From NCBI GenBank assembly GCA_965372535.1, contig CBDVCR010000002.1:1-53967 (forward strand): a DNA stretch of 53,967 nt, written 5' to 3'. The notes beneath the pieces were generated by a model. The model was not told the DNA's origin and searched no databases. It saw only the letters and a list, made by a program, of their open reading frames with translations. The position numbers were made by a program, and so were the translations under genes. The DNA comes from an uncultured bacterium (GTDB lineage: Bacteria; Nitrospirota; Thermodesulfovibrionia; Thermodesulfovibrionales; JdFR-86). Positions 18,275-53,576 of this stretch are shown here, in pieces (the first letter of the stretch is position 1; each line of letters starts with the position of its first letter).

Positions 18275-18277
18275 ATA

Positions 18278-22889: not shown

Positions 22890-25253
22890 TCAATACGAGG
22901 AACCCTTTTCCGCTCCCCCGCTGCCGGCCTTCAGGCTCTCGATCCTTTTTCTCGCATACTTGTTGCCCGGGTCGATAAGCAGCGCCTTCCCGTACTCCTC
23001 GGCGGCCCGGTAGGGGATGCCGGTCCTCTCGTAAAGGCTCCCCAAAGTTATCCGTATGCCGGCGTTGTCGGGCAGGGCACTGGCGGCCTTCCGCATAACC
23101 CCAAGCGCCTCGTCCAGACGCCCGTCTTTTGCGAAATGCCGGCGGACCCTTAAGAAATACGAAGGGTCCGGTTCCTTTTCGCCTACGGCGTACTCGACCG
23201 CCTTAAGGTATGCCCTTTCTGCCATGCCCTTTCTGCCCGTCTCGAGGAGGAAATCCCCGTAGTCCAGATACGGCCTTGCCTTCTCCGGAAGCGCCCTTTC
23301 CATCTCCCCGAGGTCCAGCCCCCGGAGCAGCATGGCCGCGATATAGCCCCTCGTATTTTCCGGCTCTATTGATATCGCCCTGCCCATCTCCACAAGCCCC
23401 CGCTCCCTCTCCCCTCGCCAGAAGAGCCACAGGGCGTACCGCCTGTGCACGGCCGGGTTCATCGGCTCGCACGCGGCCCCGGAAGCCAGCAACTTGTCCG
23501 CCATTTCGTAATCTTCACGCTGCGAGAACGCCAGGGCCGCCCTCTGCAGGTATCCGCCGTTTAAGGGGTCAAGGCCGACGGCCTTTCCGTAATGCCTTAA
23601 GGCCTGGTCTTTCTCTGAAAGCAGCAGCGCGGCGTCGGCCCCGGCGTAGGGGTACTTCGCCTCAAGGGGGTCGAAAATCGACGCCCTGTAAGCGCGCTCC
23701 TTCATCCGCTTAAGGGCCTCAGCCGGGGTATGCCTGTCAAGCTCCATGTCCTCCACGGATGAAAAACCGGACTTCGCTGTAATTACCCCCGCGTTGGCGC
23801 CCGTAACCAGGAGGGCCGCAAGGGCCGCAAGGGCCAGGTGTTTGGCGGGAAACGGCCGTCCCATGCCCTTAAGGTACGTGCCGTCTCTTCTAATCCTCGT
23901 ATGGGCCGCCGAAACGGCAAGCCCGGCGAGGAAGAAGAAGTAAAGTCCGTTGGCGCCTATGTGGAGGTTGAAGTCCGTAAACCCGTGAAACAGGAAATAC
24001 GCCATTCCGGCCAGAGCGCCCAGGGCCAGATAAATCGAATACGGCTCCATCCTCACGGCCAAGGCCCTCGCCGTCCTGATAAATACCGCGGCCAGGAACC
24101 AGCCCGCCAGGGCCGAGCCGACAAGACCCCCTTCCACGAGAAGCTCCAGATAATCGTTGTGGGCATGGTCCACGATGCGGCCGTTGGAAATGGAGCCGAA
24201 CACCTTATAAACGTGAACATAGCTGCCAAAACCCGTCCCGAAAACCGGGAAACGACCGATGATGCCCAGGCTGTCCTTCCAGAGGTCCACCCTAAGGTCG
24301 CTGATATCGCCGGAGGCGCCCCTGAGCCGCCCGAACCGCTCAAAGACCGGCTCCCACCCGAACCAGCCCACCGAAAACAAAAGGAGGACGAAAACCAGCA
24401 TGATGACCAGGCCCCTTTTCAGGTCCTTTCCAAGGAGCAGGGCACCCAGCAGGAGCATGGAAAAACAGAGGCTTATAATCCCTCCCCTTGAGAGCGAGAC
24501 AAAGACCGACGCCCCGATAAGCACGGCGGAAAACACAAGCAGCACGTATACGTTGGTCCTTCTCTGGTTGAATATCCCCACCACCGTCTCACGCAGAGAC
24601 TTATAGGCAACCTTCGGCTTATAGGCGAGCAAGAGGCCCACGACGACCGGCAGCACCATGCCCATGAACCCGGCGTAGTGGTCCCTGTTTACGTAAGGCC
24701 CGAAGGGGATGCCTCCCCTCGTAAGCTCCCTGAACCATAAAACCTTCTCGGGCGCGGCAAAATGCTGCAGTATGCTCGAAAGCGCAAGCGCCGTGGCGAA
24801 GACGGAAACCAGGGCGGCGGTTTTCCTGAGGCGTCCGGCCCCGCTTAAAAGCTGCACCGTGAGGACGTAGAACATGGCATAGGACGTAAAACGCACGCCC
24901 TCAAGCACGGTCGCCTTTTTGTTGAGGGAAAGCGACATCCACCCCGAAGGCTCAAGTATCCCCGCCGTCCCCTGGTAAAGCCCGTATGTGGCGGGCGAGA
25001 GGAGCTTGACCGCCGCCGCAGGAAGCGGCAGAACCTGAAAGAACATGTAAACCCACAGGCAGAGGAGGGGCAGGAACCCGGGCACTTCGTAAAGCCGCGC
25101 CTCCCCGCGCCGTGCGCCTGTTCCAACGAGCATCAACAGGGCGGCCGCGGTAAGGCACTGCATGAGAGCCAGCGACCACGTCTCCACGGACCCGAACGCC
25201 AGGGGAGAGAAAAGCAGGACAAAAAGGAATATCCTGTAAACGGCCTTATGCAT
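22890..25253 (-). CDS. O-antigen ligase-like (Wzy_C) membrane domain fused to a C-terminal TPR domain
   Basis: 'VDHAHNDYLELLVEGGLVG' within a polytopic N-terminal half. The C-terminal ~300 aa are TPR-like. Confidence 0.8.
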   Translation of the reverse strand: MHKAVYRIFLFVLLFSPLAFGSVETWSLALMQCLTAAALLMLVGTGARRGEARLYEVPGFLPLLCLWVYMFFQVLPLPAAAVKLLSPATYGLYQGTAGILEPSGWMSLSLNKKATVLEGVRFTSYAMFYVLTVQLLSGAGRLRKTAALVSVFATALALSSILQHFAAPEKVLWFRELTRGGIPFGPYVNRDHYAGFMGMVLPVVVGLLLAYKPKVAYKSLRETVVGIFNQRRTNVYVLLVFSAVLIGASVFVSLSRGGIISLCFSMLLLGALLLGKDLKRGLVIMLVFVLLLFSVGWFGWEPVFERFGRLRGASGDISDLRVDLWKDSLGIIGRFPVFGTGFGSYVHVYKVFGSISNGRIVDHAHNDYLELLVEGGLVGSALAGWFLAAVFIRTARALAVRMEPYSIYLALGALAGMAYFLFHGFTDFNLHIGANGLYFFFLAGLAVSAAHTRIRRDGTYLKGMGRPFPAKHLALAALAALLVTGANAGVITAKSGFSSVEDMELDRHTPAEALKRMKERAYRASIFDPLEAKYPYAGADAALLLSEKDQALRHYGKAVGLDPLNGGYLQRAALAFSQREDYEMADKLLASGAACEPMNPAVHRRYALWLFWRGERERGLVEMGRAISIEPENTRGYIAAMLLRGLDLGEMERALPEKARPYLDYGDFLLETGRKGMAERAYLKAVEYAVGEKEPDPSYFLRVRRHFAKDGRLDEALGVMRKAASALPDNAGIRITLGSLYERTGIPYRAAEEYGKALLIDPGNKYARKRIESLKAGSGGAEKGSSY

Positions 25254-43093: not shown

Positions 43094-44575
43094 TCATGAA
43101 CTCACCAGTTGCAGCGTCTTCATAAGGGCCTCGGCTTTTTTAAGCGATTCAAGGTATTCCCGTTCCGGGTCGGAGTCCGCCACTATCCCGGCGCCCGCCT
43201 GGACGTAAGCCTTTTGCCCCTTTATGGTGAACGTCCTTATGACGATGTTAAGGTCCATCGAGCCGCCGAAGCCGAGGTAGCCGACGGAGCCGGTATAAGG
43301 CCCCCTTCTCAAGGGCTCAAGTTCGTCGATTATCTCCATGCAGCGCACCTTGGGCACCCCGGTGATGGTACCGCCGGGGAACACGGCCCGGATGACGTCC
43401 GTCAGGGTTTTGCCCGGAGCGAGGGCGCCCTTGACGTTGGAGACGATATGCATCACATGGGAGTAGTCCTCGGTAATCATAAGCTCGTCCGCCTCCACGC
43501 TGCCGTAATCGCACACCCTGCCGAGGTCGTTCCTTTCGAGGTCGATGAGCATTATGTGCTCCGCCCGTTCCTTCTCGTTAAGCAGGAGCTCGTCGCGCAT
43601 GCGCATGTCCTCTCCGGCGTCCTTCCCCCTCGGCCGGGTGCCTGCAATGGGCCTTGTCTCGACCGAACCGCCGCAAACCCGGACCAGCCGCTCCGGCGAG
43701 GAACTCACAATCTGGTAATCCCCGAAGTCCATGAACGCCGCGAAGGGAGCGGGGTTTACGTCCCTCAGCACCGAATAAAGCCGCCAGGGGCTGATGTCCC
43801 CGATGGAGGCCGAAACCCTGAGGGACAGGTTCGCCTGGAAAATATCCCCTGCCGCTATGTACTCCCTGGCCCTTTTTACCATATCGGTATAGTATTTCCT
43901 CGTCGTATCATGGGTTATCTCCACCCTGCCGCCCCTGCGGGGTAATGTCCTGTCCACGCGGCGGCGGTCCATCGCCCGGATGATTTTCGCCACCTCCTCC
44001 TCCGCCTCGTCATAGTCGGAAGGCCAGTCCGGGGCGGTTTTTCGCCTTGCGCCGGGGCAGAAGACGGCCCATGCCTTTTTTTCGAGGTGGTCGAAGGCCA
44101 AAACCCTGTCAGCCATCAGAAAATGGGCGTCGGGCACGCCGAGGTCGTCCTTCGTGGTGGCGGGCGCCCGTTCGAGGTAATGGACGAAGTCGTAGCTCAA
44201 AAGGCCCACGCCGCCTCCCTGAAACGGCGGCAGCGCGGGGTCGGGTCTCTGCCTGTAGCCCCGGGTGAGGGTCCTCAGCGCCCCCAGTGGACCGCCGGCA
44301 AGCGTTTTGGTTCCCTCGCCGTCCTTAAGTTCCGCCGCACCGTCCTTGATTTTATATTCCGCGTACGGGGAAAAACCGATGAAAGAGTACCGGGCTATCT
44401 TGAACGGCCCCTTGACGCTTTCGAGCAGAAAACTCCCCGGACCGGAAAAAGAAGGGTATAGCGAGGCGGGCGAGGCATAGGGCACGGGGGCGTAAAGGGG
44501 AGGCGTTGCGCCGCTTTTTACGGCCTCAAGGAAAGCCTTCTTGGTGGCCGATAACCGGAAAAGGGCGTCTGTCAT
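43094..44575 (-). CDS. chorismate-utilising enzyme, anthranilate/aminodeoxychorismate synthase component I (TrpE/PabB family)
   Basis: Start reset to 'MTDALFRL'. 'FLLESV', 'SSSPERLV', 'IAGTRPRG', 'PGGTITGVPKVRCMEIIDELE', 'RGPYTGSVGY'. Confidence 0.85.
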   Translation of the reverse strand: MTDALFRLSATKKAFLEAVKSGATPPLYAPVPYASPASLYPSFSGPGSFLLESVKGPFKIARYSFIGFSPYAEYKIKDGAAELKDGEGTKTLAGGPLGALRTLTRGYRQRPDPALPPFQGGGVGLLSYDFVHYLERAPATTKDDLGVPDAHFLMADRVLAFDHLEKKAWAVFCPGARRKTAPDWPSDYDEAEEEVAKIIRAMDRRRVDRTLPRRGGRVEITHDTTRKYYTDMVKRAREYIAAGDIFQANLSLRVSASIGDISPWRLYSVLRDVNPAPFAAFMDFGDYQIVSSSPERLVRVCGGSVETRPIAGTRPRGKDAGEDMRMRDELLLNEKERAEHIMLIDLERNDLGRVCDYGSVEADELMITEDYSHVMHIVSNVKGALAPGKTLTDVIRAVFPGGTITGVPKVRCMEIIDELEPLRRGPYTGSVGYLGFGGSMDLNIVIRTFTIKGQKAYVQAGAGIVADSDPEREYLESLKKAEALMKTLQLVSS

Positions 44576-44586
44576 GAGAGCGGCCC

Positions 44587-45306
44587 CTATCTGGCGGTCA
44601 GCATCTCCACCGTTATGAGGTCCAGGGCCTTGAGGGAGTCGGGCTGGTCGAGGATTGAGCGCCCCACGACCAGGTAGTCGGCCCCCTCCCTGACGGCCTG
44701 CCTCGGGGTCATGGTCCTTTTCTGGTCGTCGGGCGGGCTCCATGAGGGCCTGATGCCGGGCGTCACTATGAGGAAATTCTCCCTGCAGTGTTTCCTTATC
44801 AGGGAGACTTCATGGCCGGAGGCGATAACGCCGTCGAAGCCGGCCTCGTCCGCCAGTTTCGAGAGTTTCTTGACATGGGTCCTGAGGCTGTGCTGGATGC
44901 CGAACTCCTCCTTGAACGGTTCGGGCCCCAGGCTGGTGAGCACCGTGACCCCGAGTATCCTGGGCCTCGGAAGGTTTTCCCTGGCGCAGAGGTCGGCCAC
45001 GGCGTCCGCGCACCTTTTCATGGTCTCAAGGCCGGAGGAGGCGTGGACGTTGAACATATGCACCCCGAGCCGGGTCGCGGCCAGCGCGGCCCTGGCCACG
45101 GTGTTGGGTATGTCGTGGAACTTCAGGTCAAGGAAGACTTTCTTGCCCCTCTGCTGGATGGCGCGGACCACCGAAGGGCCGGCCGAGGAGAAAAGCTCAA
45201 GCCCCACCTTGAATATTTCTATCTGCCCGCCGAAGCGGTCCACCGCATCGAGCGCGTAGCCTTCGCCGCTTACGTCAAGGGCGAGAATGATTTTTTCCCT
45301 GGCCAC
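44587..45306 (-). CDS. pyrF: orotidine 5'-phosphate decarboxylase
   Basis: 'KIILALDV', 'FKVGLELF', 'VFLDLKFHDIPNT'. GTG start inferred at 45306; the longer ORF would run into dcd. Confidence 0.8.
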   Translation of the reverse strand: MAREKIILALDVSGEGYALDAVDRFGGQIEIFKVGLELFSSAGPSVVRAIQQRGKKVFLDLKFHDIPNTVARAALAATRLGVHMFNVHASSGLETMKRCADAVADLCARENLPRPRILGVTVLTSLGPEPFKEEFGIQHSLRTHVKKLSKLADEAGFDGVIASGHEVSLIRKHCRENFLIVTPGIRPSWSPPDDQKRTMTPRQAVREGADYLVVGRSILDQPDSLKALDLITVEMLTAR

Positions 45307-45851
45307 TATAACCTCTGGTGGGTGATGTCCTTCTGCGCCTGGTATTTCCCCGCCCTGTCGGCGTAGGACGTTTCGCAGACCTCCACGGCGCCGAGGAATA
45401 TTACCTGTGCGATTCCCTCGTTTGCATAGACCCTGGCGGGAAGCGGCGCCGTGTTGGAAATGGATATGGTCACGAACCCCTCCCACTCGGGCTCAAGGGG
45501 GGTTACGTTTACCACCACCCCGCACCTGGCGTATGTGGACTTGCCGAAACATACGGCCAGCACGTCTCTTGGCAGCCTGAAGTACTCGAGGGAGCGGCCG
45601 AGGGCGTAGGAGTTGGGGGGGATTACGCAGACATCGCCCTTGAAGTCCACGAAATGCCCGCGGTCGGCCTCCTTCGGGTCGACGACTCCCTCCGCGGCCT
45701 GGAAAATCCGGAACTCCCCGGAAAGCCTCATGTCGTATCCGTAGGAGCCGACGCCGGAGGAGATGACGCCTTCTTTTTTCAGCGTCTCGTTAAACGGCTC
45801 TATCATGCCCTTTGCGGCCATCTCCCTTATCCAGAGGTCGTTTTTAGGCAT
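45306..45851 (-). CDS. dcd: dCTP deaminase
   Basis: Start reset to '[11 protein letters not shown]'. '[10 protein letters not shown]', 'KSTYARCG', 'EPEWEG.VT..ISN'. Confidence 0.9.
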
Positions 45852-46334
45852 CCAGAAGATTACCACAAGGCCGCGGCGCAATACAAGAAAAAGAGAAAAT
45901 ATTTTCGGAAAAACGGGTTGATTTGTATTATAATAGTGCAAGGGTAGGACAGAGTTACCTGCCCTGTGCGTGAAGGGCGGAGAATGTTGATCCAACAAAT
46001 TAGATCTATCGGGAGCCCGCGTAAGAAGTGCGGTGAGCAAGTCTTCCCTCACGAGGGAAGAAAGCCTGAAGGCTTCTTCAGGGCACCCACCTATGTAACA
46101 GGGGGTCTAAATTCTCATGCCTGGCACGGCAGGGCGGGTTTAGGTTTTCATGGGGAGTTCATGGCAGGTTTTCAAATCGAAAATAAATGTGAAATATCCG
46201 AACCGGGGCGCGCGCCCCGTAACGTAAATTTCAGGAAATCACGCCATAAACCCCTCGCCCCCGGAAGCACCTGCTTCCTGACCTGACCTTTCTGTCCTTT
46301 CCCTAAAGACCGTACAGTTGAGGAGGAGCGCCAT

Positions 46335-47894
46335 ATGGAGGCGAAGTATGTAATTGCAGCCATCGGTATCGGTATTGCATTCGGCACCCTGCTTGCCGTG
46401 GTTTACGGCTATTATGTTAAGGCGAAATGGGGAGCGCTGGAGACGCAGAAGGAATCCGTCGTAAAGGATGCGGAGAGGACGGCCTCGGCCATAAAGAAAG
46501 AGGCCGCAATCGAGGCCAAGGACATCGTATACCAGGCCAAGTCGGAGGCCGAAAAGGAGCTTAAGGAAAGGCACAACGAGCTAAGCCAGAACGAGAAGAG
46601 GCTCAGGCACAAGGACGACCTCCTGGAGAAGAAGCTCGAACAGGCCGAAAGAAAGGACAGCGAACTCGGCAGGAAGGAGAAGGAGTTAGGCCAGAAGGAA
46701 AAGGACGTCCAGGAGAAGGAGAGCCATTACGCCCGGCTTATCGGCGAGCAGACCGCCCTGCTTGAGAAGTACTCGGGCATAAGCGCCGATGAGGCCAGGC
46801 AGGAGCTTTTCAGGAGGGTGGAGGAGGACTCCACCTTCGAGGCGGCCAAGCTGGCAAAGAGAATCGAGGACGAGGCGCGGGAGACCGCGGACAAGAAGGC
46901 CAAGGCGATAATCAGCCATTCCATCCAGCGCTACGCCAGCGACTACATAGCCGACGCCACGGTGTCCTCGGTGAGCCTCAAGAGCGATGAGTTGAAGGGG
47001 CGTATTATAGGCAGGGAAGGCCGCAATATCCGGGCGCTCGAGGCGGCCACCGGGGTGGACCTCATCGTGGACGACACGCCGGAGGTGGTCACCATCTCGG
47101 CCTTCGACCCCGTAAGGAGAGAGGTGGCGAGGCTCGCCCTCGAAAAACTGATTGCCGACGGCAGAATTCATCCGGCGAGGATTGAGGAGATAGTTGAGAA
47201 GGTAAAGAGAGAGGTGGACGCCATAATCATCGAGGAAGGGGAAAAGGCGGTCTTCGACCTCGGCCTCGCGGGCGTGCACCCGGAACTCGTTAAAACCCTC
47301 GGGCGGCTCAAGTACAGGACCTCGTACGGGCAGAACGTGCTCCAGCACTCAAGAGAGGTGGCCTACCTCGCCGGCCTGATGGCCGGGGAACTCGGCGTGG
47401 ACATAAGGCTTGCCAAGAGGGCGGGGCTGCTGCACGACCTCGGCAAGGCCGTGGACCACGAGGTTGAAGGCCCGCACCACGAGATAGGCGGGAAGCTGGC
47501 CAAAAAACACGGGGAGAAGGAAGAAGTCGTAAACGCCATAATGGCCCACCACGGCGACGTGGAGGTGGCCACCGTGGAGGCCGCCCTGGTGGCCGCGGCG
47601 GACGCCCTCTCGGCGGCGCGCCCCGGCGTGAGGCGCGAGAGCATAGAGAACTACATAAAGCGGCTTGAAAAACTCGAAGAACTCGCCATGTCCTACGACG
47701 GGGTGGACAAGTGCTACGCCGTCCAGGCCGGAAGGGAACTCAGGCTTATCGTCAAGCCCGACAGCGTAAACGACAACATGTCGTGGAACATCGCAAGGGA
47801 GTTGTCCAAAAAAATAGAGCAGGAAATGACCTATCCCGGGCAGATAAAGGTTACCGTCATCCGGGAGTCCAGGTACGTGGAGTACGCCAAATAG
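46335..47894 (+). CDS. rny: ribonuclease Y
   Basis: N-terminal TM helix, KE-rich coiled coil, KH '[15 protein letters not shown]', HD '[12 protein letters not shown]'. Confidence 0.95.
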
Positions 47895-47900
47895 CGGCGC

Positions 47901-48683
47901 ATGAAGGTCCTTTTCGTCGGCGATATCGTTGCCAGGGCGGGCAGGACCGCCCTTAAGGCCCTCCTGCCGAAAATCAGGGACCGCTACAGGCTCGACGTCG
48001 TCCTGGCAAACGGCGAAAACGCCGCGGGCGGCTTCGGCATCACGGAGAAGGTGGCCTCCGAGCTTTTCGCCATGGGCGTGGAGGTCATCACCACCGGCAA
48101 CCACGTCTGGGACAAGAAAGAGGCCGTTAAATACCTGGACCGGGAAAAGCGCATACTGCGGCCCCTTAACTACCCCCCCGGCGTCCCCGGCATGGGCAGC
48201 ATCGTCCATGAAACCAAAAAGGGGGAGAAATTGGCCGTCCTTAACGTCTCCGGCAGGGTGTTCATGCAGAACTACGACTGCCCCTTCCGGGGCGTCGAGG
48301 CGGAGCTTGAGAAGCTCAAGGGGGTCACGAAAAACATCGTCGTCGATTTCCACGCCGAGGCCACGTCGGAGAAAATCACCTTCGGCTATTTCCTGGACGG
48401 CAAGGTCAGCGCCGTTCTCGGCACGCACACCCATGTGCAGACCGCGGACGAGAAAGTGCTCCCCGGCGGCACGGCCTACATTACCGACGTCGGGATGACA
48501 GGCCCCGCGGACTCCATCATCGGGGTGGAAAAAGAACAGATAATCGAGCGGTTTCTGACCCTGATGCCCCGGAGGTTCGACGCGGCCAAAGGCCCGGCGA
48601 TGCTCAACGCCGTGGTGCTCGACATTGACGGAAAGACCGGCCGCTCCACCGCCATCCACAGGCTCCAGCTTACGCACCCGTAG
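47901..48683 (+). CDS. ymdB: YmdB-family metallophosphoesterase (2',3'-cyclic-nucleotide phosphodiesterase)
   Basis: 'MKVLFVGDIV', 'ANGENAAGGFGIT', 'TTGNHVWD', 'DFHAEATSEK', 'GTHTHVQTADE'. Confidence 0.9.
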   Translation: MKVLFVGDIVARAGRTALKALLPKIRDRYRLDVVLANGENAAGGFGITEKVASELFAMGVEVITTGNHVWDKKEAVKYLDREKRILRPLNYPPGVPGMGSIVHETKKGEKLAVLNVSGRVFMQNYDCPFRGVEAELEKLKGVTKNIVVDFHAEATSEKITFGYFLDGKVSAVLGTHTHVQTADEKVLPGGTAYITDVGMTGPADSIIGVEKEQIIERFLTLMPRRFDAAKGPAMLNAVVLDIDGKTGRSTAIHRLQLTHP

Positions 48684-48973
48684 GGGGGGGGAGGTAGGGG
48701 GTTGCTTCCTGAAACAAGAAAATTAACGGATTAATAAATTATGATAATTTCAAACATAAATTCGCAGCGAGGACTTCTTCCTGAACTTTGCAGGGTCAGA
48801 GGGGTGAAAAAACTGCGGAGTAGCAGTGTAAATCAACAGGGGAACATGGAAGTGGCCCTGTATGCCTGCAGGAAGAGCTATTTATCTTGATAATATTGGA
48901 ATTCATGTGCTAATCTTTTCCATGATAAATAAACAATTTTCCATAAAATTCAGTGCTTATAGGGCTTTTTTGA

Positions 48974-49894
48974 ATGCTTGACCCAGTTGAATTATTTCCA
49001 GAAATTCCCAATTTATATCAATTCCCGAGCGTGCATGCAGGGATGCTATATGATGAAGAACGGGTGGCAAAATATTCAGCAGCTATCAAACAAGTTATAA
49101 AAAAGGGCGATGTTGTGGCAGATATTGGCACAGGAACAGGACTTCTTGCATTTTTATGCTTAAAGGCAGGTGCAAAGAGGGTGCATGCTATCGAACGATC
49201 ATCAGCAATAGATTGGGCCAAACGAATTGCCGACAAGAATGGGTTAAGCGATAGAATTATTTTTCATAAGCAAGATTCGCGAGATTGCGATCTTCCGGAG
49301 AAGGTTAATGTGGTAGTGAGCGAACTTATTGGTCACATTGCTTTTGAGGAGGGAATGGCCGAATCGCTTTTCGACGCGAGGGAAAGGTTCCTTGTGCCAG
49401 GTGGCGTCTTGGTGCCGGAAAAAGTAGATTTAAGAGTGGCACTTGTTGAAGAAAAGGAGGTTTATCCAGAGTGTATAGATTGTTGGCAAGATATAGGAGG
49501 AATTGATTATTCACCTATGCGTGAAGAAGCGGTTAAGGCATGTTATTTGTCCAATTTAAAAGACCGTGATCTTTTGTCAAAACCAAAGACTTTTTTTAGG
49601 GCGGATTTCCAAGCAAGAAGGCCGTTAAATCTAAAAGGAAAACATTCATTTGATGTCTGTCGTGACGGGAAAATAAATGGGATTGCTTTATGGTTTGAAT
49701 CATGTCTTTCTCCTACTGTCACACTTTCTTCAGGTCCTGGGACACGAACGCACTGGAAACAATGCTTTGCGCCGCTAACAGAAGCGATTCATGTAAGTAT
49801 GGGTGATAACGTTTGCGTTAATATCGATATGCAATTACGCACTAAAGAAAATGATTCGTTTCGAATTATTTTTAGCGTTGAAAAGAAAGATTAA
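48974..49894 (+). CDS. protein arginine N-methyltransferase (PRMT)-like SAM-dependent methyltransferase
   Basis: 'HAGMLYDEERVAKY', motif I 'VVADIGTGTGLL', 'AKRVHAIERS', double-E loop 'VVVSELIGHIAFEEGM', THW loop 'THWKQ', plus a full-length beta-barrel region. Confidence 0.85.
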   Translation: MLDPVELFPEIPNLYQFPSVHAGMLYDEERVAKYSAAIKQVIKKGDVVADIGTGTGLLAFLCLKAGAKRVHAIERSSAIDWAKRIADKNGLSDRIIFHKQDSRDCDLPEKVNVVVSELIGHIAFEEGMAESLFDARERFLVPGGVLVPEKVDLRVALVEEKEVYPECIDCWQDIGGIDYSPMREEAVKACYLSNLKDRDLLSKPKTFFRADFQARRPLNLKGKHSFDVCRDGKINGIALWFESCLSPTVTLSSGPGTRTHWKQCFAPLTEAIHVSMGDNVCVNIDMQLRTKENDSFRIIFSVEKKD

Positions 49895-49908
49895 TTCAAA
49901 GGTAAAAA

Positions 49909-51642
49909 ATGCCAAATCCAGAAACATTTGAGGTGTTTGATTTACTCGATAAATACAAAGGTCGCTTAAAAACGATAGGGTTTTTGAAGGGGAGTTCACT
50001 TAAAGATATTGAAGATAAATTAAAAAAGTTAATGGGATTATTTCCAAAAGGCGTAAAGGATAAAGAAGAATCATTGGACTGGCATGAAGCACATGAAATA
50101 GGGCGAGACTTATGGCGCCAATTGATAAGCGCTGCGATAAATAGTATTGATGAAAATTCCAAGGGAAATTCGAAGCTTTTTGAATATCTCGATGACGCAA
50201 CAAAATTTGAAGATTTATTATATGGACTGGACCCATACTATAGAGACCACACATTGCATTCGTTATGGGTTTATTTTTTAGGAGACCAACTGTTAAATAA
50301 TGATTTAAAACATGTTTATGAGCAGCTAAATTGGTACTTATTCAATGATATCAAAAGAGATGAGGAGAAGTATCAATATAAAACAGAATTGGTGAATTTT
50401 TCAAAAATAAAAAAAGAGCTACTTTGTAATGAAGTGAATAAACATAAAGATGCAATTTGGTGTATTATCGCGCTGTGTCATGATCTGGGATATTCTCTTG
50501 CCAAATTAAATAGGCTCAATGCAAGTGTCCAAAAGGTATTAGAATATTACGATGTACCTGACTTCAGGCATGTTGGATATTCGTTAGATATTGAGCACCA
50601 ATACCTTATGTCACAGTTTCTCGAATTGATGTGCATGGATGTACGTATTGAGCCTAGCGAGAAATATGATGACCCAAAAAAAATAACCCGAGGAGCAAAG
50701 AAATGGCTATCTGCTTGGAATGATGCAAACAATGGTAAATATAGCGACGATGAACGTAAGGAAAAAGTAAACAGCCTTTCACAAAGAATCCCAAGAGAGT
50801 TAGAAAATAAAATATCAGTTAAATGCTATAAGGATGACTCAACATACTGGCGATTATGTCGAGCACTAGAGAAGAAGGAACATGGAATATTAAGTGCGTA
50901 TTTAATTTATAAAATTCTTGGCATTTTTGCAGAAAGTTCAGTGCGAGGGCCTGCGGAAGAGTGGGGTCTTGACGATGCGGAAACGCAACGCAATATAATT
51001 AGAGGCGATATTCTTTTTGCAATTGCTCAGCATGGATTCGATTTTGCTCATCTAAATCAGTTAGGTAGTCTCGCTGACCTTCTAATAATTGCTGATGAAT
51101 TAGAGGAATTTACTAGATACGGTAGACAATTGGCATCACGAAAATATACCGCTACGACCGCAAAAACATCAATAGAATTTAGAAATCCCCAAAATAATGA
51201 GGGAATTAAGCCAGGACAGGATATCGAGATAGATATTGCTTATTATTGTAAGCATAAGCAGGAAGAACATTTTCTTGATTTTTTTCGTAGAAAAGCAGAA
51301 AAACGATTATGTAGTATCTATTCCCTTAAGCCAACACGAGAAGAAAAGGCAGAGGAGGAAAAGGATAATTATTGCACCATAACAAGCATTAAAATGAATA
51401 TGAAGTGGGAAGACCCAAAAGATGAGACAAACAAAAAGGAATATTGGTTTAAATTTTCCAGTGATGGCAAACTTTGGGGCGGTTTGCCAGAGTATAAATT
51501 AGACGACAGGGATAGTGAAATGCCGGAAGAAGGATATGAGCTAAAATCTTATGATGATGAACTCCGAGTTTATTATGATGGAAAAGAGATAAAATTAAAA
51601 AAATGGTTAGGATTAGATAAGTCGGATGTTGAAAAAGATTAA
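49909..51642 (+). CDS. HD-domain-like protein of unknown function (577 aa)
   Basis: 'RDHTLHSLWVYFLG' ... 'IIALCHDLGYSL' ... 'LLIIADELEEF' give H-HD-D spacing. I recognised no other domain. Confidence 0.7.
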   Translation: MPNPETFEVFDLLDKYKGRLKTIGFLKGSSLKDIEDKLKKLMGLFPKGVKDKEESLDWHEAHEIGRDLWRQLISAAINSIDENSKGNSKLFEYLDDATKFEDLLYGLDPYYRDHTLHSLWVYFLGDQLLNNDLKHVYEQLNWYLFNDIKRDEEKYQYKTELVNFSKIKKELLCNEVNKHKDAIWCIIALCHDLGYSLAKLNRLNASVQKVLEYYDVPDFRHVGYSLDIEHQYLMSQFLELMCMDVRIEPSEKYDDPKKITRGAKKWLSAWNDANNGKYSDDERKEKVNSLSQRIPRELENKISVKCYKDDSTYWRLCRALEKKEHGILSAYLIYKILGIFAESSVRGPAEEWGLDDAETQRNIIRGDILFAIAQHGFDFAHLNQLGSLADLLIIADELEEFTRYGRQLASRKYTATTAKTSIEFRNPQNNEGIKPGQDIEIDIAYYCKHKQEEHFLDFFRRKAEKRLCSIYSLKPTREEKAEEEKDNYCTITSIKMNMKWEDPKDETNKKEYWFKFSSDGKLWGGLPEYKLDDRDSEMPEEGYELKSYDDELRVYYDGKEIKLKKWLGLDKSDVEKD

Positions 51643-51660
51643 ACTTAAGAATTTTTTACT

Positions 51661-52047
51661 ATGAAGAAAATAGAAAAGAAACCATATGGATTTGAGCTGA
51701 TAATAGATTTACATAAATGTGACGTGTCTACATTTAACAGAGAAAGCCTTGACGCTTATTTTGCAAAACTGTGCAAGGCAATTAAGATGCAAAAATGCGA
51801 ACGATATTTCTGGGATGATGTTGGATTGCCAGAAGAGCAGAAGCAGACATCTCCTCATACAAAAGGGTCTTCGGCAGTACAGTTTATCCTTACCAGTTCT
51901 ATTGTTATTCATACGTTGGATTTATTAGAAGCTGTTTATATAAATATTTTTTCATGTAAAAAATACAATAAGGAGCTGGCAGTTAAGATTACAAAAGAGT
52001 GGTTTGTTGCAAAGGAAGTTAGAACGCATTTCATTGAGAGGATTTAG
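51661..52047 (+). CDS. SpeH-type (class 1) S-adenosylmethionine decarboxylase-like pyruvoyl enzyme, divergent
   Basis: Aligns by eye with prokaryotic AdoMetDC. 'YGFELIIDLHKC', 'GSSAVQFILTSSIVIHT' (canonical ...ISESHLTIHT) and 'INIFSCKKY' (canonical DLFTCG). Confidence 0.8.
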   Translation: MKKIEKKPYGFELIIDLHKCDVSTFNRESLDAYFAKLCKAIKMQKCERYFWDDVGLPEEQKQTSPHTKGSSAVQFILTSSIVIHTLDLLEAVYINIFSCKKYNKELAVKITKEWFVAKEVRTHFIERI

Positions 52048-52048
52048 C

Positions 52049-53413
52049 ATGTTGCTGACCAGACGAGAGCTTGATATCCCTGCAGTAAAAACTAATAAAT
52101 ACTTATTGAATTATTTTCGAGAAGAAGTTGAAAAAAATATTGAAGCTGATGAAATACCAGTACGATTTGCGGTAACACAAAGTGATTCGAATGTAAACAA
52201 ATGCGAATTAGGCATTCTTAAAAGAGCAAACCGTTCATATGCACATCGGCTGTCATCTATCTTTGATTTTACTCCGAGAGAAATCGAAAACACCAAAAAC
52301 TTTAATGCGGTGATGATAGTCCCCACTGGTATCGGAGCGGAGATTGGAGGTCATGCCGGAGACGCTACTCCAGCAGCAAGATTGTTGGCTTCAGTTTGTG
52401 ATACGCTGGTAACCCATCCGAATGTGGTAAATGCTTCTGACTTAAACGAATTGCCAGCTAATGGGTTATATGTTGAAGGTAATACGCTGACACAATTGTT
52501 GATGGGCACGGTAGGTTTACAGAAGGTTAGAGCAAATCGAATACTTATGGTTATCGATAAACACCCGGATAGTAGAATTTCTGATTTTTCTATCAATGCT
52601 GTTTCTGCTGCTCGTAGTACATTGGGAATTGATTGTCAAGTAATTGAGATGGATTCGCCGATACTAATGCGTCCAGATTATTCTACTTCGGGTACTGCAG
52701 TGGGCAGAATCGAAGGCATTGAGCGGCTTTGCGAAGTGCTTAGCGCTCATAGAGCAGAATATGATGCTATAGCTCTGACTTCAATTATTGATGTGTCAAA
52801 GGAACTCATGATGGATTATTTTCAAAGTTCTGGAGATATGGTTAATCCGTGGGGTGGCGTGGAGGCAATGTTGACGCATGCGATAACAATGTTATTTGGG
52901 GTGCCAGCAGCACATTCCCCTATGTTAGAATCGACAGACGTATTAGAGATGCAACTTGGCATAGTAGATCCACGCATGTCTGCTGAAGCAATATCTACCA
53001 GTTTTCTTCACTGCATATTAAAGGGGCTTCACCAAAGTCCTCGAATTATCACTGACGGCCTATTATTTACGCATCCGAGTGTAATAACTGCAGCTGATAT
53101 ATCATGTATGGTGATACCAGATGGATGTGTGGGTTTACCGACACTTGCAGCGCTGGAGCAAGGAATTCCCGTAATAGCAGTAAAAGAGAATAAAAGCCGA
53201 ATGAAGAATGATCTTAAGGCACTTCCATTTAGGCCTGGCAAACTCTTCTTTGCAGAGAATTATCTCGAAGCAGTAGGTATAATGGTCGCCCTCAAAGCTG
53301 GAGTATCTTTAACTTCTGTACGTAGACCGTTAAGTCCAACAAAAGTTTCTACAGAAAAACGAGATAAAGACATGGCCAACCCAGAGATAGCTCAGATAAA
53401 ACTAAAAGCGTAA
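52049..53413 (+). CDS. DUF3326-like protein of unknown function (family name recalled from memory) with an ~85-aa N-terminal extension
   Basis: Start reset to ATG 52049 (GAGAGGA SD, 1 nt after the upstream stop). Conserved-looking core 'IVPTGIGAEIGGHAGDATPAARLLA...THPNVVNAS'. Confidence 0.65.
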   Translation: MLLTRRELDIPAVKTNKYLLNYFREEVEKNIEADEIPVRFAVTQSDSNVNKCELGILKRANRSYAHRLSSIFDFTPREIENTKNFNAVMIVPTGIGAEIGGHAGDATPAARLLASVCDTLVTHPNVVNASDLNELPANGLYVEGNTLTQLLMGTVGLQKVRANRILMVIDKHPDSRISDFSINAVSAARSTLGIDCQVIEMDSPILMRPDYSTSGTAVGRIEGIERLCEVLSAHRAEYDAIALTSIIDVSKELMMDYFQSSGDMVNPWGGVEAMLTHAITMLFGVPAAHSPMLESTDVLEMQLGIVDPRMSAEAISTSFLHCILKGLHQSPRIITDGLLFTHPSVITAADISCMVIPDGCVGLPTLAALEQGIPVIAVKENKSRMKNDLKALPFRPGKLFFAENYLEAVGIMVALKAGVSLTSVRRPLSPTKVSTEKRDKDMANPEIAQIKLKA

Positions 53414-53576
53414 TAAATAGTGACAGCGGAAAAATAAATAGCCTACATTAATCCGCAAGTCAAAATTCATTATGAAGGCAACAGTAGTAGGCGTTAGCCG
53501 CAAAAACCTGCCTGAGCGTCACAGGGCACGACTTTGTAACCCGCCCTCCGCGGGTTTCGTGAGAAAAAGGAACCTG

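What the first reader, a model, noticed from the sequence alone, without database searches (positions are those of the whole stretch)
48974..49894. Eukaryote-type protein arginine methyltransferase homologue in a bacterial island
The 306-aa protein carries the complete PRMT signature set in the right order and spacing. It has 'H.GML.DE.R...Y' at the N-terminus, motif I 'VADIGTGTGLL' and post-I 'RVHAIERS'. The double-E loop 'SELIGHIAFEEGM' has the two Glu spaced as in PRMT1 'SEWMGYCLFYESM'. The diagnostic THW loop 'THWKQ' is present, and a C-terminal region of beta-barrel length follows. The THW loop and double-E loop position the arginine guanidinium in eukaryotic type I PRMTs. As far as I know, such complete homologues are uncommon in bacteria. 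Together with the AT-rich context this suggests horizontal acquisition. The substrate (protein arginine or a free guanidino compound) is open.
Basis: partly seen in the sequence, partly recalled or inferred. Interest (0 to 1): 0.7.

Follow-up and report, generated by a model that had tools for sequence, protein, structure and literature searches.

The report
Bacterial PRMT-like methyltransferase in mobile cassette
The gene is a real, intact relative of eukaryotic protein arginine methyltransferases, and it matters because it is the first gene of a horizontally acquired four-gene cassette (with a decarboxylase, a DUF3326 protein and a novel-fold protein) that recurs in bacterial anti-phage defence islands and has no described function.

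Summary
ORF 48974-49894 (+) encodes 306 aa that align end to end with yeast Hmt1/PRMT1 (E 5e-37) and hit Pfam PRMT_C (3e-19). Motif I, the post-I acid, the double-E loop (E117, E126) and THW (259-261) are intact and invariant in the family.

It is not a lone eukaryotic import. About 315 close homologues come from metagenomes, and at least 150 protein clusters score above any eukaryotic PRMT in the PDB.

The main result is the context. The gene opens a low-GC operon (GC3 0.31 against 0.8 in host genes): PRMT-like, a 577-aa protein with HD-type motifs and no fold match, a divergent pyruvoyl SpeD-like decarboxylase, and DUF3326. In related loci gene 2 is a class III cyclase-TPR protein, and once the decarboxylase is an NspC-like PLP enzyme. 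The SpeD-like + DUF3326 pair is far commoner and lies beside restriction-modification (R-M), Septu, PDC-S73 and BrxH/DrmD-like genes. The nearest outgroup PRMT-likes sit next to deoxyhypusine-synthase (SpeY)-like genes.

Best reading: a guanidino N-methyltransferase that tailors an arginine- or agmatine-derived amine made by a candidate, undescribed defence-island cassette. A protein substrate remains a serious rival. Nothing is shown biochemically.

The parts
48700..53450 (.). Low-GC horizontally acquired island holding the four-gene cassette. It begins just after the host ymdB-like gene (stop at 48683). GC rises again after about 53450.
   Evidence: GC in 200-nt windows drops from 0.51-0.65 to 0.30-0.46 between about 48800 and 53600. 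Cassette GC is 0.382 against 0.564 in the flanks. GC3 is 0.30-0.33 against 0.73-0.85. No convincing flanking repeats, tRNA or integrase were found.
48974..49894 (+). Gene 1: PRMT-fold SAM-dependent guanidino N-methyltransferase homologue, 306 aa (the finding).
   Evidence: PDB phmmer best hit is Hmt1/PRMT1, E 5e-37, full length. Pfam PRMT_C E 3e-19. 315 close homologues.
49115..49141 (+). Motif I VADIGTGTG (SAM binding), residues 48-56.
   Evidence: Translation. D50, G52, G54, T55 and G56 are invariant in A1.
49322..49351 (+). Double-E loop ELIGHIAFEE (E117 to E126), with an extra invariant acid E125 and an invariant His121.
   Evidence: Aligned with Hmt1 SEWMGYFLLYES. Invariant in the family.
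49748..49756 (+). THW loop (T259, H260, W261).
   Evidence: Aligned with THW of Hmt1. H260 and W261 are invariant, T259 is at least 90% conserved.
49909..51642 (+). Gene 2: 577-aa protein of an orphan family with HD-type metal-site motifs (YRDHTLHS at 111-118, CHDLGY at 190-195, QH at 374-375, D396/E399/E400). It has an alpha-helical N-terminal part and a beta-rich C-terminal domain. Related cassettes carry a class III cyclase-TPR protein in this position.
   Evidence: No Pfam, NCBIfam or PADLOC hit. 710 homologues. Invariant residues in A3. AF2 model has pLDDT 85 and pTM 0.91, but no PDB or BFVD match at E<=1e-3. There are only weak HD hints.
51661..52047 (+). Gene 3: divergent class-1 AdoMetDC/SpeD-like putative pyruvoyl decarboxylase, 128 aa. 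T78-S79 lies at the self-cleavage position, and His84 and Cys99 are retained.
   Evidence: Pfam AdoMet_dc E 2e-14, 54 bits (cutoff 25). It is below the NCBIfam SAM_DCase cutoff. Alignment of 10 family members. Replaced by an NspC-like PLP decarboxylase in L145.
52049..53413 (+). Gene 4: DUF3326 protein, 454 aa. The real start is ATG 52049, 1 nt after the stop of gene 3, not the TTG at 52004 listed mechanically. It has an invariant Gly-rich motif PTGIGAEIGGHAGDA (residues 92-106; nt 52322-52366) after a hydrophobic strand.
   Evidence: Pfam DUF3326 E 4e-90. More than 6400 homologues. The start is inferred from homologues. Invariant columns.

Best explanation
Three layers, in decreasing order of support. 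SHOWN: the ORF encodes a catalytically intact PRMT-fold methyltransferase. It has a SAM-binding Rossmann domain and the guanidinium-binding double-E and THW loops. A PRMT_C profile hit supports the C-terminal beta-barrel. SHOWN: it belongs to a tight prokaryotic clade that is always the first gene of a mobile operon. The order is PRMT-like, then a variable gene 2 (class III cyclase-TPR, or as here an HD-motif protein of unmatched fold), then a decarboxylase (SpeD-like pyruvoyl, or once NspC-like PLP), then DUF3326. The last two or three genes form a much more widespread module that sits next to known defence genes in five of about eleven independent contexts examined. INFERRED: the decarboxylase and DUF3326 build an arginine- or agmatine-derived amine or guanidino-polyamine. 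DUF3326 would take the amine-joining role that SpeY/DHS or CANSDH-type enzymes play elsewhere. The PRMT-like enzyme would N-methylate the guanidino group of that small molecule or of its free-arginine precursor. Gene 2 would be the nucleotide-directed effector or regulator of what is probably a new anti-phage or conflict system. In this reading the PRMT is an optional tailoring component, because the cassette also exists without it or with an unrelated 169-198-aa first gene.
For: PRMT identity.

Conserved synteny: all 8 independent loci with a PRMT at least 54% identical have it immediately followed by gene 2 (6 cyclase-TPR, 2 HD-like). In 6 of the 7 with enough downstream sequence, a decarboxylase and DUF3326 follow. 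In the window the intergenic gaps are 14, 18 and 1 nt.

Decarboxylase role: in L145 the SpeD-like gene is displaced by an alanine-racemase-fold PLP decarboxylase closest to carboxynorspermidine decarboxylase NspC (E 5e-94). The Ser, His and Cys at the AdoMetDC catalytic positions are kept in all 10 SpeD-like sequences.

Link between PRMT-likes and guanidino-polyamine enzymes:
- The two closest outgroup PRMT-likes (L008 39%, L063 41%) lie directly beside deoxyhypusine-synthase/SpeY-like genes, and L008 also has an AdoMet_dc gene.
- SpeY plus arginine decarboxylases, including neofunctionalised SpeD (SpeDA), make bis(guanidino)homospermidine from agmatine (PMC13625781).
- These outgroups share with the window family the loop signature SE[LV]IGH...(D/E)E.

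DUF3326 and polyamines: PavB (DUF3326) sits in the three-gene pavABC cluster that its authors deleted to test for pavettamine (a polyamine) biosynthesis. PavA in that cluster carries a Lys/Orn-decarboxylase domain (bioRxiv 10.64898/2026.06.12.731819).

Precedent for free-arginine methylation in bacteria: SznE, and the N-methylagmatine groups of saskemycin (PMC12637814).

Defence-island context, confirmed with PADLOC models and Pfam context:
- PDC-S73 (2e-165), DrmC-like PLD and OLD-family nuclease, R-M and Abi_2 around L001.
- Type IIG R-M (1.8e-275), Mrr and a dCTP deaminase-family (DCD/dUTPase) gene in L148.
- BrxH/DrmD-like helicase and SLFN-AlbA_2 in L150.
- Type I R-M and SLFN-AlbA_2 in L152.
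- Septu PtuA/PtuB 9 nt upstream of the pair in L147.
- PRMT plus cyclase between the mod and res genes of a type III R-M in L005.

Mobility: cassette GC is below flank GC in 9 of 12 loci.
Against: - There is no biochemical or genetic evidence for any step.
- DUF3326 could not be modelled (pLDDT 52), so its proposed role rests on two gene-neighbourhood analogies.
- L005 has the PRMT and cyclase-TPR genes without a decarboxylase or DUF3326. That fits a protein substrate, or a common cellular metabolite, better than a cassette-made product.
- All six PRMT-linked cyclase-TPR proteins start with an Arg-rich tail, MA(K/R)RRRR, which is an obvious candidate protein substrate.
- The enzyme keeps the PRMT_C region and aligns continuously through the region where Hmt1 has its dimerisation arm, as protein-modifying PRMTs do.
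- Some contexts are housekeeping-like (L141, L145, L146, and the window itself sits next to rny/ymdB), so the defence association is suggestive and not statistical.
- The cassette was not found on phages, plasmids or viral contigs.
- What gene 2 does, and why a cyclase and an HD-like protein are interchangeable, is unexplained.
Confidence: 0.45

Rival explanations
1. It is a true protein arginine methyltransferase. It methylates a partner or target protein, switching the effector on or off or disabling a phage protein. Candidates are the Arg-rich N-terminal tail of the adjacent gene-2 protein in the cyclase variants, another cassette protein, or a phage or host protein. The decarboxylase and DUF3326 would do something unrelated to its substrate.
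For: The protein aligns over its full length with protein-modifying PRMTs, including PRMT_C. The PRMT gene is always directly upstream of gene 2. It occurs with the cyclase-TPR gene alone in L005/L006, inside a type III R-M operon. All six linked cyclase-TPR proteins carry a conserved MA(K/R)RRRR tail. A more distant PRMT-like (L063) precedes ParA-like and CHAT-protease genes.
Against: In the window the partner is the HD-like protein, whose N-terminus (MPNPETFEV...) has no Arg tail. Its variable K/E-rich insert is not specific to PRMT-linked members. Gene 2 belongs to two unrelated families, yet the PRMT is very strongly conserved (68% mean column identity), which argues for one common substrate. 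The nearest outgroups are linked to SpeY/SpeD-type polyamine genes.
Confidence: 0.3
2. The cassette is an ordinary, if unusual, polyamine or secondary-metabolite pathway with no role in phage defence. It might make a methylated guanidino-amine used as an osmolyte, signal, antibiotic or siderophore-like compound. In this reading the defence-gene neighbours only reflect its residence in variable genomic islands.
For: The domain content is metabolic: a methyltransferase, a decarboxylase and a Rossmann-like DUF3326 protein. DUF3326 is implicated in pavettamine biosynthesis. Housekeeping-like neighbours occur in L141, L145, L146 and the window. No component is on phages or plasmids, and there is no PADLOC hit for genes 2-4.
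Against: The cassette is repeatedly adjacent to bona fide defence genes, sometimes operon-like, in 5-6 independent contexts. The first and second genes vary in a modular way, as is typical of defence systems. No transporter, ureohydrolase or other usual polyamine-pathway gene is linked. Distribution across phyla is patchy, with high sequence identity.
Confidence: 0.2
3. It is a generic class I methyltransferase (PrmA/UbiE-like, as many database names say), and the PRMT motifs are a chance resemblance.
For: Source annotations call family members '50S ribosomal protein L11 methyltransferase', 'UbiE' and similar. PrmA and Methyltransf_25/31 Pfam models do hit.
Against: Those hits cover only residues about 37-175 and all NCBIfam scores are far below their cutoffs. 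PRMT_C covers 153-300. 74 PDB sequences hit, all of them PRMTs, with best E 5e-37. The double-E and THW residues are invariant in the family.
Confidence: 0.02
4. The gene was acquired recently and directly from a eukaryote.
For: Characterised PRMTs are eukaryotic, and the best named hits are yeast and human PRMT1.
Against: At least 150 representatives of 50%-identity clusters score 162-338 bits, against 130 bits for Hmt1. Labelled relatives are bacterial or archaeal MAGs. The gene lies in a bacterial-type operon with 1-18-nt spacers. Identity to Hmt1 is only 30%, against 39-41% to prokaryotic outgroups.
Confidence: 0.03

Closest known systems
Eukaryotic type I PRMTs (yeast Hmt1, PRMT1/3/6/8)
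   Same: The alignment covers query residues 13-296 of 306 and includes the Rossmann domain and the PRMT_C barrel region. The conserved elements are H-x2-ML-x-D-x2-R-x3-Y, motif I, a post-I acid (E74), D101, a double-E loop with the same 8-residue spacing, and THWKQ. The two Met that align with those of Hmt1 'EEML' and 'ESM' are kept (M24, M128).
   Different: Identity is only about 30%. The aromatic residues of the loop SEWMGY are replaced by SELIGH, with an invariant His121 and an extra invariant acid (E125). The N-terminus MLDPxELFPExPN is distinctive and strongly conserved. There are no N-terminal targeting domains. The gene lies in a bacterial operon with metabolic genes. The substrate is unknown, and dimerisation was not modelled.
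SznE-type bacterial free-arginine N-methyltransferases (streptozotocin; the saskemycin BGC homologue)
   Same: This is a bacterial precedent for SAM-dependent methylation of the guanidino group of free L-arginine. In saskemycin the product is thought to give N-methylagmatine after decarboxylation (PMC12637814). That is the same methyltransferase-plus-decarboxylase logic proposed here.
   Different: Sequence relatedness of SznE to this protein was not tested here. That SznE is PRMT-like is my recollection only. Those enzymes sit in classical Streptomyces biosynthetic clusters, not in a four-gene cassette with DUF3326 and an HD-like or cyclase protein.
SpeY (DHS homologue) + arginine decarboxylase pathway to N1,N9-bis(guanidino)homospermidine (PMC13625781)
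   Same: A decarboxylase is paired with an amine-joining enzyme, and decarboxylases of different folds are interchangeable (SpeD-derived SpeDA or alanine-racemase-fold PLP). The products carry guanidino groups. The closest outgroup PRMT-likes (L008, L063) are physically linked to DHS/SpeY-like genes.
   Different: The window has no DHS/SpeY homologue; DUF3326 stands in its place and its activity is unknown. No ureohydrolase or iminohydrolase follows. The SpeD-like protein is a divergent subfamily (54 bits against 88-91 bits for L008's).
Carboxy(nor)spermidine / carboxyaminopropylagmatine pathways (CANSDH/CAPADH + NspC-type decarboxylase)
   Same: In L145 the decarboxylase slot is filled by an NspC-like enzyme (E 5e-94). 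This suggests the substrate may be an N-substituted basic amino acid made by the neighbouring enzyme.
   Different: No CANSDH/CAPADH (saccharopine-dehydrogenase-like) gene is present. The NspC-like protein is below the equivalog cutoff (315 against 409 bits). In most cassettes the decarboxylase is pyruvoyl, not PLP.
Pavettamine cluster pavABC (bioRxiv 10.64898/2026.06.12.731819)
   Same: This is the only cluster found in the papers searched that links a DUF3326 protein (PavB) to polyamine biosynthesis. There too it is paired with a basic-amino-acid decarboxylase domain (PavA).
   Different: PavA is a Rieske-PLP fusion and PavC a JmjC hydroxylase. There is no methyltransferase and no HD-like or cyclase partner. 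The sequence distance of PavB from the window protein was not measured.
Nucleotide-based defence systems (Pycsar cyclases; dGTPase/SAMHD1-like dNTP depletion)
   Same: Gene 2 is either a class III cyclase-like protein (Pfam Guanylate_cyc E 8e-8) or a protein with R-x-H-x2-HS and CHDLG motifs. By my reading these recall dNTP triphosphohydrolases. Its location in defence islands also matches.
   Different: There is no PADLOC hit and no cNMP-binding effector. The HD-like protein has no significant fold match to SAMHD1/dGTPase or anything else. Any functional analogy is conjecture.

Membership tests
PRMT superfamily (type I-like) | Class I Rossmann SAM-binding domain with motif I (V-x-D-x-G-x-G-x-G) and a post-I acidic residue | tested here: met
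   VADIGTGTG at 48-56. The acid is E74 (E or D across the family). It aligns to VLDVGCGTG / GVD of Hmt1.
PRMT superfamily (type I-like) | Double-E loop: two invariant Glu with 8 residues between them | tested here: met
   E117 and E126 are invariant in 20 of 20 family members and lie on the two Glu of Hmt1 SEWMGYFLLYES.
PRMT superfamily (type I-like) | THW loop | tested here: met
   T259-H260-W261-K-Q aligns to THWKQ of Hmt1. H260 and W261 are invariant.
PRMT superfamily (type I-like) | C-terminal beta-barrel domain | tested here: met
   Pfam PRMT_C 153-300, E 3e-19, 70 bits against a cutoff of 27. The PDB alignments run to residue 296. This is sequence-level only; no 3D model of this protein was made.
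PRMT superfamily (type I-like) | Dimerisation arm and head-to-tail dimer | tested here: inconclusive
   The alignment with Hmt1 is continuous, without large gaps, through residues about 150-215 where the arm lies.
PRMT superfamily (type I-like) | N-terminal YFxxY / alpha-Y helix and H-x2-ML-x-D-x2-R motif | tested here: met
   NLYQFPSVHAGMLYDEERVAKY against NSYDHYGIHEEMLQDTVRTLSY of Hmt1. H21, D27, R30 and Y34 are invariant. The YFxxY part is only partly kept (Y15, F17).
PRMT superfamily (type I-like) | Methylation of arginine residues in proteins, and the product type (MMA or ADMA) | not testable with these tools
   This needs enzyme assays. The context suggests a small-molecule guanidino substrate is at least as likely.
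PrmA / UbiE-type generic methyltransferases | Full-length match above the curated cutoff | tested here: not met
   NCBIfam prmA scores 31.8 bits against a cutoff of 183, and UbiG 22 against 103. The Pfam PrmA hit covers only 37-123.
AdoMetDC/SpeD class 1 pyruvoyl decarboxylases (gene 3) | Pfam AdoMet_dc fold match, with the self-cleavage Ser and the catalytic His and Cys | tested here: met
   Pfam E 2e-14 over 13-127, profile positions 2-106 of 107. S79, H84 and C99 are conserved in 10 of 10 family members.
AdoMetDC/SpeD class 1 pyruvoyl decarboxylases (gene 3) | S-adenosylmethionine as substrate (equivalog level) | tested here: not met
   NCBIfam SAM_DCase_Bsu scores 24.7 bits against a cutoff of 75.65. 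The slot is filled by an NspC-like PLP decarboxylase in L145. This argues for an amino-acid-type substrate. No assay was possible.
Known anti-phage defence systems (PADLOC-DB v2.0.0) | Component proteins match the models of a described system | tested here: not met
   Genes 2-4 give no hit. Gene 1 hits only the methyltransferase domain of mad2 (E 6e-16, residues 33-149). Full-text searches found no paper linking DUF3326 or a SpeD-like decarboxylase to phage defence (one search matched only AdoMetDC, not PF02675 or PF11805).
SpeY/DHS-dependent bis(guanidino)homospermidine pathway | Presence of a deoxyhypusine-synthase homologue, an ADC and a ureohydrolase or iminohydrolase | tested here: not met
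   The window cassette has no DS-family gene and no SpeB/AguA. DS genes occur only beside the outgroup PRMT-likes L008 and L063.
HD-domain phosphohydrolase superfamily (gene 2) | H...HD...D metal-binding motif set on the HD helical fold | tested here: inconclusive
   Invariant H114/H117, H191-D192, H375 and D396. Pfam HD reaches only E 0.086, on one homologue. A Cas3-type HD in the PDB reaches E 0.33. Foldseek on a confident model finds nothing at E<=1e-3, with PDE4 at ranks 20 and 31.

The most novel reading that the evidence does not exclude
The cassette is a previously undescribed family of anti-phage or conflict systems whose conserved core (SpeD-like pyruvoyl decarboxylase plus DUF3326) makes an arginine-derived guanidino-amine or polyamine. 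That compound would act as an antiviral molecule or as a second messenger controlling a nucleotide-directed effector: a novel-fold HD-like protein or a class III cyclase-TPR protein. In the window's variant a PRMT-fold enzyme has been recruited to N-methylate the guanidino group of that small molecule. This would be the first functional assignment for a prokaryotic PRMT clade and for DUF3326.
Probability: 0.25. Interest if true: 0.9.

Novelty: new variant of a known kind. Interest (0 to 1): 0.68.

Why it matters
PRMTs are textbook eukaryotic enzymes, and I found no functional study of a prokaryotic PRMT clade in the papers searched. This clade has an intact guanidinium-binding site and a very informative gene neighbourhood. 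That makes the question of what bacterial PRMT-likes methylate directly testable with four small genes.

Separately, the SpeD-like + DUF3326 pair has more than 6400 homologues and no known function, and it is found beside R-M, Septu and BREX/DISARM-type genes. It may be an unrecognised small-molecule-based defence module. It would also give a first activity for DUF3326, a family that is also present in cyanobacteria and plants. Finally, gene 2 gives a confident structure prediction with no match in PDB or BFVD.

Tried and rejected
- **DUF3326 structure.** AF2 on a 20-sequence alignment gave pLDDT 52 and pTM 0.50. Foldseek against PDB returned only noise. A profile search against PDB sequences also found nothing. 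I draw no fold conclusion.
- **Gene-2 fold searches.** PDB and BFVD searches gave no hit at E<=1e-3 despite a confident model. The idea that it is a recognisable SAMHD1/dGTPase homologue is therefore not supported beyond short motifs.
- **RG-containing insert.** I tested whether the insert in PRMT-linked HD-like proteins marks a methylation site. The insert is a variable K/E-rich segment that is also present in PRMT-less members, so I dropped the idea.
- **Collection scans.** They recovered mostly distant methyltransferases. They were useful for outgroups but not for counting cassettes.
- **Mobile-element searches.** No cassette component (PRMT family, DUF3326) was found in IMG/VR, phage or plasmid collections. 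The plasmid PRMT-like hits are only 24-31% identical.
- **Island boundaries.** No tRNA, integrase or flanking direct repeats define the island in the window. The promoter and terminator scans were at background level.
- **Host taxon.** Cluster look-ups gave no names for the host or for the nearest PRMT relatives.
- **Literature.** Searches for DUF3326, AdoMet_dc, PRMT or polyamine together with phage defence found no description of this system.
Full report
**1. The observation**

The ORF listing gives an ORF from ATG 48974 to the stop at 49894 on the + strand, 306 aa.
- HAGMLYDEERVAKY, residues 21-34
- VADIGTGTG, residues 48-56
- RVHAIERS, residues 69-76
- SELIGHIAFEEGM, residues 116-128
- THWKQ, residues 259-263

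phmmer against PDB sequences returns 74 distinct sequences, and every listed one is a PRMT. The best is yeast Hmt1 (E 5.3e-37, query 13-296 against chain 5-299), followed by PRMT1, 8, 2, 6, 3 and CARM1. In the printed alignment E117 and E126 fall on the two Glu of SEWMGYFLLYES, and THWKQ falls on THWKQ.

Pfam's best hit is PRMT_C, the beta-barrel/oligomerisation subdomain (residues 153-300, E 3e-19, 70 bits against a cutoff of 27). PrmA and the generic methyltransferase models touch only the Rossmann half. No NCBIfam model comes near its cutoff.

**2. The family**

The large protein collection holds 315 homologues at E<=1e-5. The best 120 are 53-100% identical, and nearly all are 303-313 aa. 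In a 20-sequence alignment the mean column identity is 68%. The following are invariant:
- the catalytic positions D50, G52, G54-G56, D101, E117, E126, H260 and W261;
- the clade-specific residues H121, F124, E125 and M128;
- P4, E6-P9, N13 and F17 in the N-terminal segment MLDPxELFPExPN.

The conserved N-terminus shows that ATG 48974 is the real start, not the Met24 used in a public gene call (P0001, 283 aa).

Named members come from MAGs of Nitrospirae and Actinobacteria and from unclassified MAGs labelled only 'bacterium'. Their annotations are misleading ('L11 methyltransferase', 'UbiE').

An exhaustive HMMER scan of 1.84 billion cluster representatives finds 1015 proteins at E<=1e-30 and 6445 at E<=1e-10. 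The best 150 score 162-338 bits, all above yeast Hmt1 at 130 bits. Those I looked up are unnamed metagenome proteins.

In species-representative genomes, PRMT-likes 26-39% identical occur in Aminicenantia, Desulfobacteraceae, Hyphomicrobiaceae, Acidimicrobiia, Cyanobacteria, Bacteroidota and an Altiarchaeote. Many of these keep both Glu and THW; others, such as the actinobacterial ones, have degenerate loops.

Complete PRMT-type enzymes are therefore sporadic but not rare in prokaryotes. Nothing indicates a recent eukaryotic donor: identity is 30% to Hmt1 against 39-41% to the nearest prokaryotic outgroups.

**3. The gene is the first of four in a foreign operon**

Three ORFs follow downstream on the same strand, with spacers of 14, 18 and 1 nt:
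- 49909-51642, 577 aa, with no Pfam, NCBIfam or PADLOC hit;
- 51661-52047, 128 aa, Pfam AdoMet_dc E 2e-14;
- 52049-53413, 454 aa, DUF3326 E 4e-90. The mechanical ORF list starts this gene at TTG 52004, but homologues begin at the ATG.

The block is 38% GC against 56% for the rest of the window. GC3 is 0.30-0.33 against 0.73-0.85 in the adjacent rny, ymdB-like, pyrF and pabB-like genes. I found no tRNA, integrase or flanking repeat.

**4. Conservation of the context**

Contigs encoding family members show the same order every time.

| Loci | Gene order |
|---|---|
| L001, L002-4, L141/142/061 | PRMT, a 451-480-aa protein, AdoMet_dc, DUF3326 |
| L062 (contig ends inside gene 2) | PRMT, cyclase-TPR protein |
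| L143/144 | PRMT, a 619-aa homologue of the window's gene 2 (55% identical), AdoMet_dc, DUF3326 |
| L145 | PRMT (53-54% identical), 483-aa protein, a PLP decarboxylase, DUF3326 |
| L005/006 | PRMT and a 476-aa protein only, between the mod and res genes of a type III R-M system |

The 451-483-aa proteins are mutually homologous. They consist of a class III nucleotidyl-cyclase domain (Pfam Guanylate_cyc E 8e-8) followed by TPR repeats. They are unrelated to the window's gene 2.

Across the 8 independent loci with a PRMT at least 54% identical, gene 2 is the cyclase-TPR type in 6 and the HD-like type in 2. A decarboxylase and DUF3326 follow in 6 of the 7 loci that are long enough. More distant PRMT-likes (47% identity or less) lack the cassette.

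**5. The core is bigger than the PRMT**

DUF3326 proteins of this type are much more numerous. 6431 were scored at E<=1e-5, and the best 120 are 59-100% identical, nearly all at least 63%. Gene-2 (HD-like) homologues number at least 710.

Their contexts show the same module without the PRMT:

| Loci | Arrangement | Neighbours |
|---|---|---|
| L148/149 (a Bacteroidales member) | 198-aa protein, HD-like, AdoMet_dc, DUF3326 | DUF4062, a DCD/dUTPase-family (dCTP deaminase-like) gene, Mrr, a type IIG R-M enzyme (PADLOC E 1.8e-275) |
| L150/151 (a Verrucomicrobia member) | 169-aa protein, HD-like, AdoMet_dc, DUF3326, TPR protein | type IIG R-M, SLFN-AlbA_2, a BrxH/DrmD-like SNF2 helicase |
| L152-154 | HD-like, AdoMet_dc, DUF3326, with no gene 1 | lies between a type I R-M system plus RadC and SLFN-AlbA_2 |
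| L147 | AdoMet_dc, DUF3326 | Septu PtuA (E 1e-63) and PtuB (E 3.5e-21), 9 nt upstream |
| L146 (a Planctomycetota chromosome) | AdoMet_dc, DUF3326 | an HDOD/HD protein upstream |

L001, which carries the PRMT, is flanked upstream by an OLD-type nuclease, PDC-S73 (E 2e-165), an R-M pair, a lipase and a DrmC-like PLD. Downstream lie a PIF1/PDC-S68-like helicase and Abi_2.

So about 5-6 of about 11 independent contexts are defence islands. The others (L141, L145, L146 and the window itself) look housekeeping. This is suggestive, not a statistic.

PADLOC v2 has no model matching genes 2-4. Ten full-text searches found no description of such a system.

**6. What the neighbours say about chemistry**

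*(a) The SpeD-like protein.* It is a divergent AdoMetDC-fold protein, at 24.7 bits against the 75.65 cutoff of the SAM decarboxylase equivalog. All ten sequences examined keep a Ser at the pyruvoyl position (T78-S79 rather than E-S), the His (H84) and the Cys (C99).

*(b) The displacement in L145.* Its slot there is taken by an alanine-racemase-fold PLP decarboxylase closest to carboxynorspermidine decarboxylase NspC (E 5e-94, below the cutoff). Such non-orthologous displacement argues that the step is decarboxylation of a basic, or N-substituted basic, amino acid and not of SAM. Michael and co-workers have shown that SpeD homologues repeatedly became arginine or ornithine decarboxylases (PMC10407285). 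They also showed that arginine decarboxylases of three folds are interchangeable partners of SpeY (PMC13625781).

*(c) DUF3326.* Its only functional mention in the papers searched is PavB, in the pavABC cluster proposed for the polyamine pavettamine. There too it stands next to a Lys/Orn-decarboxylase domain. The invariant PTGIGAEIGGHAGDA after a hydrophobic strand looks like a dinucleotide-binding loop. That is my reading of the sequence, not a tested result. I could not obtain a usable model.

*(d) The outgroups.* The two nearest outgroup PRMT-likes are linked to polyamine genes.
- In L008 (a Desulfobacteraceae MAG, 39% identical) the order is deoxyhypusine-synthase-like, AdoMet_dc, PRMT-like, then an 833-aa unknown protein.
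- In L063 (41% identical) a DS-family ORF ends 5 nt before the PRMT-like gene.

The L008 DS protein hits the NCBIfam models for DHS and for '1,9-bis(guanidino)-5-aza-nonane synthase'. SpeY-type enzymes join two agmatines into bis(guanidino)homospermidine. These outgroups share with the window family the loop signature SE[LV]IGH...(D/E)E, that is, His in place of the Tyr of SEWMGY and an extra acid before the second Glu.

*(e) Precedent.* SznE methylates free arginine. The N-methylagmatine groups of saskemycin are proposed to arise from omega-N-methylarginine (PMC12637814).

Together these make a small guanidino compound the most economical substrate. Candidates are free arginine, agmatine, or a guanidino-polyamine made by genes 3-4.

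**7. The rival reading**

The enzyme keeps the whole PRMT architecture. It always sits directly upstream of gene 2, and in L005 it occurs with the cyclase-TPR protein alone.

All six PRMT-linked cyclase-TPR proteins begin with a conserved Arg-rich tail:
- MAKRRRRRTASRS
- MARRRRISE
- MARRRRNES
- MAKQRSTRTRARS
- MRRKKID
- ..NPRRRRNKS

That tail is a natural candidate for arginine methylation. In the window, however, the partner is the HD-like protein, which has no such tail. Its K/E-rich insert varies regardless of PRMT linkage. I weight this rival at about 0.3.

**8. Gene 2 of the window**

A 75-sequence alignment shows these invariant residues: R112, D113, H114, H117, H191, D192, Q374, H375, D396, E399, E400, R403, G405 and R406. 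That is an H...HD...H...D pattern. The local motifs RDHTLHS and CHDLGY recall dNTP triphosphohydrolases, but this is from memory only.

AlphaFold2 gives a confident model (pLDDT 85, pTM 0.91) with a helical N-terminal two-thirds and a beta-rich C-terminal domain. Foldseek finds nothing at E<=1e-3 in PDB (best E 0.07; PDE4 at ranks 20 and 31) or in BFVD. Sequence hints are weak: Pfam HD E 0.086 on one homologue, and a Cas3-type HD at E 0.33.

HD membership is therefore unproven. Why an HD-like protein and a cyclase-TPR protein are interchangeable is unexplained. Both families act on nucleotides, which suggests an effector or regulator role.

**9. Verdict**

*Shown:*
- The gene is a real, intact PRMT-fold enzyme.
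- It was horizontally acquired.
- It is a member of a tight prokaryotic clade.
- It is the first gene of a conserved, modular, mobile cassette whose core recurs in defence islands.

*Inferred:*
- It methylates a guanidino small molecule made, or processed, by the co-encoded decarboxylase and DUF3326.
- The cassette is a new conflict system.

*Unknown:* the actual substrate, the DUF3326 reaction, the gene-2 activity and any phenotype.

As a PRMT it is a new variant of a known kind. The cassette as a whole may be something new, which is why I score interest at about 0.7.

Noticed in passing
window 49909-51642: The 577-aa gene-2 protein belongs to an orphan family of at least 710 members. AlphaFold2 models it confidently (pLDDT 85, pTM 0.91), yet there is no structural neighbour at E<=1e-3 in PDB or BFVD. 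It may have a new fold built around HD-like metal-site motifs.
   Followed up: partly
L147 5626-9365: A Septu pair (PtuA E 1e-63, PtuB E 3.5e-21) lies 9 nt upstream of the SpeD-like + DUF3326 pair, as if in one operon. This suggests the pair can be attached to different defence modules.
   Followed up: partly
L008 1246-6103; L063 5-1670: The closest outgroup PRMT-likes (39-41% identical) sit directly next to deoxyhypusine-synthase/SpeY-like genes, and in L008 also next to a canonical AdoMet_dc gene. In L063 the PRMT-like is followed by a 406-aa unknown protein, a ParA-like ATPase and a CHAT/C25 protease.
   Followed up: partly
L145 7697-11225: In one cassette the pyruvoyl SpeD-like gene is replaced by an NspC-like PLP decarboxylase. 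An LPG_synthase_C (DUF2156) protein follows DUF3326.
   Followed up: partly
L002 10923-, L005 10924-, L141 2169-, L145 6217-, L062 ~1912-, L001 ~10923-: Every PRMT-linked cyclase-TPR protein begins with a short Arg-rich tail, MA(K/R)RRRR or similar. It could be a methylation substrate or a nucleic-acid-binding tail.
   Followed up: partly
L005 7307-15201: A PRMT + cyclase-TPR pair, without a decarboxylase or DUF3326, is inserted between the mod and res genes of a type III R-M system. The res gene appears split into two ORFs. PrimPol and integrase genes lie nearby.
   Followed up: no
L148 7391-7987; L150 7478-7987: In PRMT-less cassettes the first gene encodes a 169-198-aa protein with no Pfam hit. 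The two examples share motifs (FYIxF, DExW, H-x-R-x-LD-x-IW), so they are probably a second, unrelated gene-1 family.
   Followed up: no
window 15573-22812 (- strand): A second low-GC stretch (41-48% GC) encodes a polysaccharide/O-antigen-type cluster: two sulfotransferases, a GNAT, two GT2 glycosyltransferases, a Wzy-like polymerase and a Wzx-type flippase. A Wzy_C-TPR protein follows at 22890-25253.
   Followed up: partly
window 48974-49042 and 52004-52048: Two gene-start issues. A public call of the PRMT starts at Met24 (283 aa), although the first 23 residues are highly conserved. The mechanical ORF for DUF3326 starts at TTG 52004 and overlaps gene 3, whereas homologues support ATG 52049.
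   Followed up: yes
window 43094-48683: The host backbone next to the island is ordinary housekeeping: a pabB/trpE-like gene, pyrF, a dCTP deaminase-like gene, RNase Y, and a YmdB-like metallophosphoesterase (TIGR00282 family). The host taxon could not be named from the cluster look-ups.
   Followed up: partly
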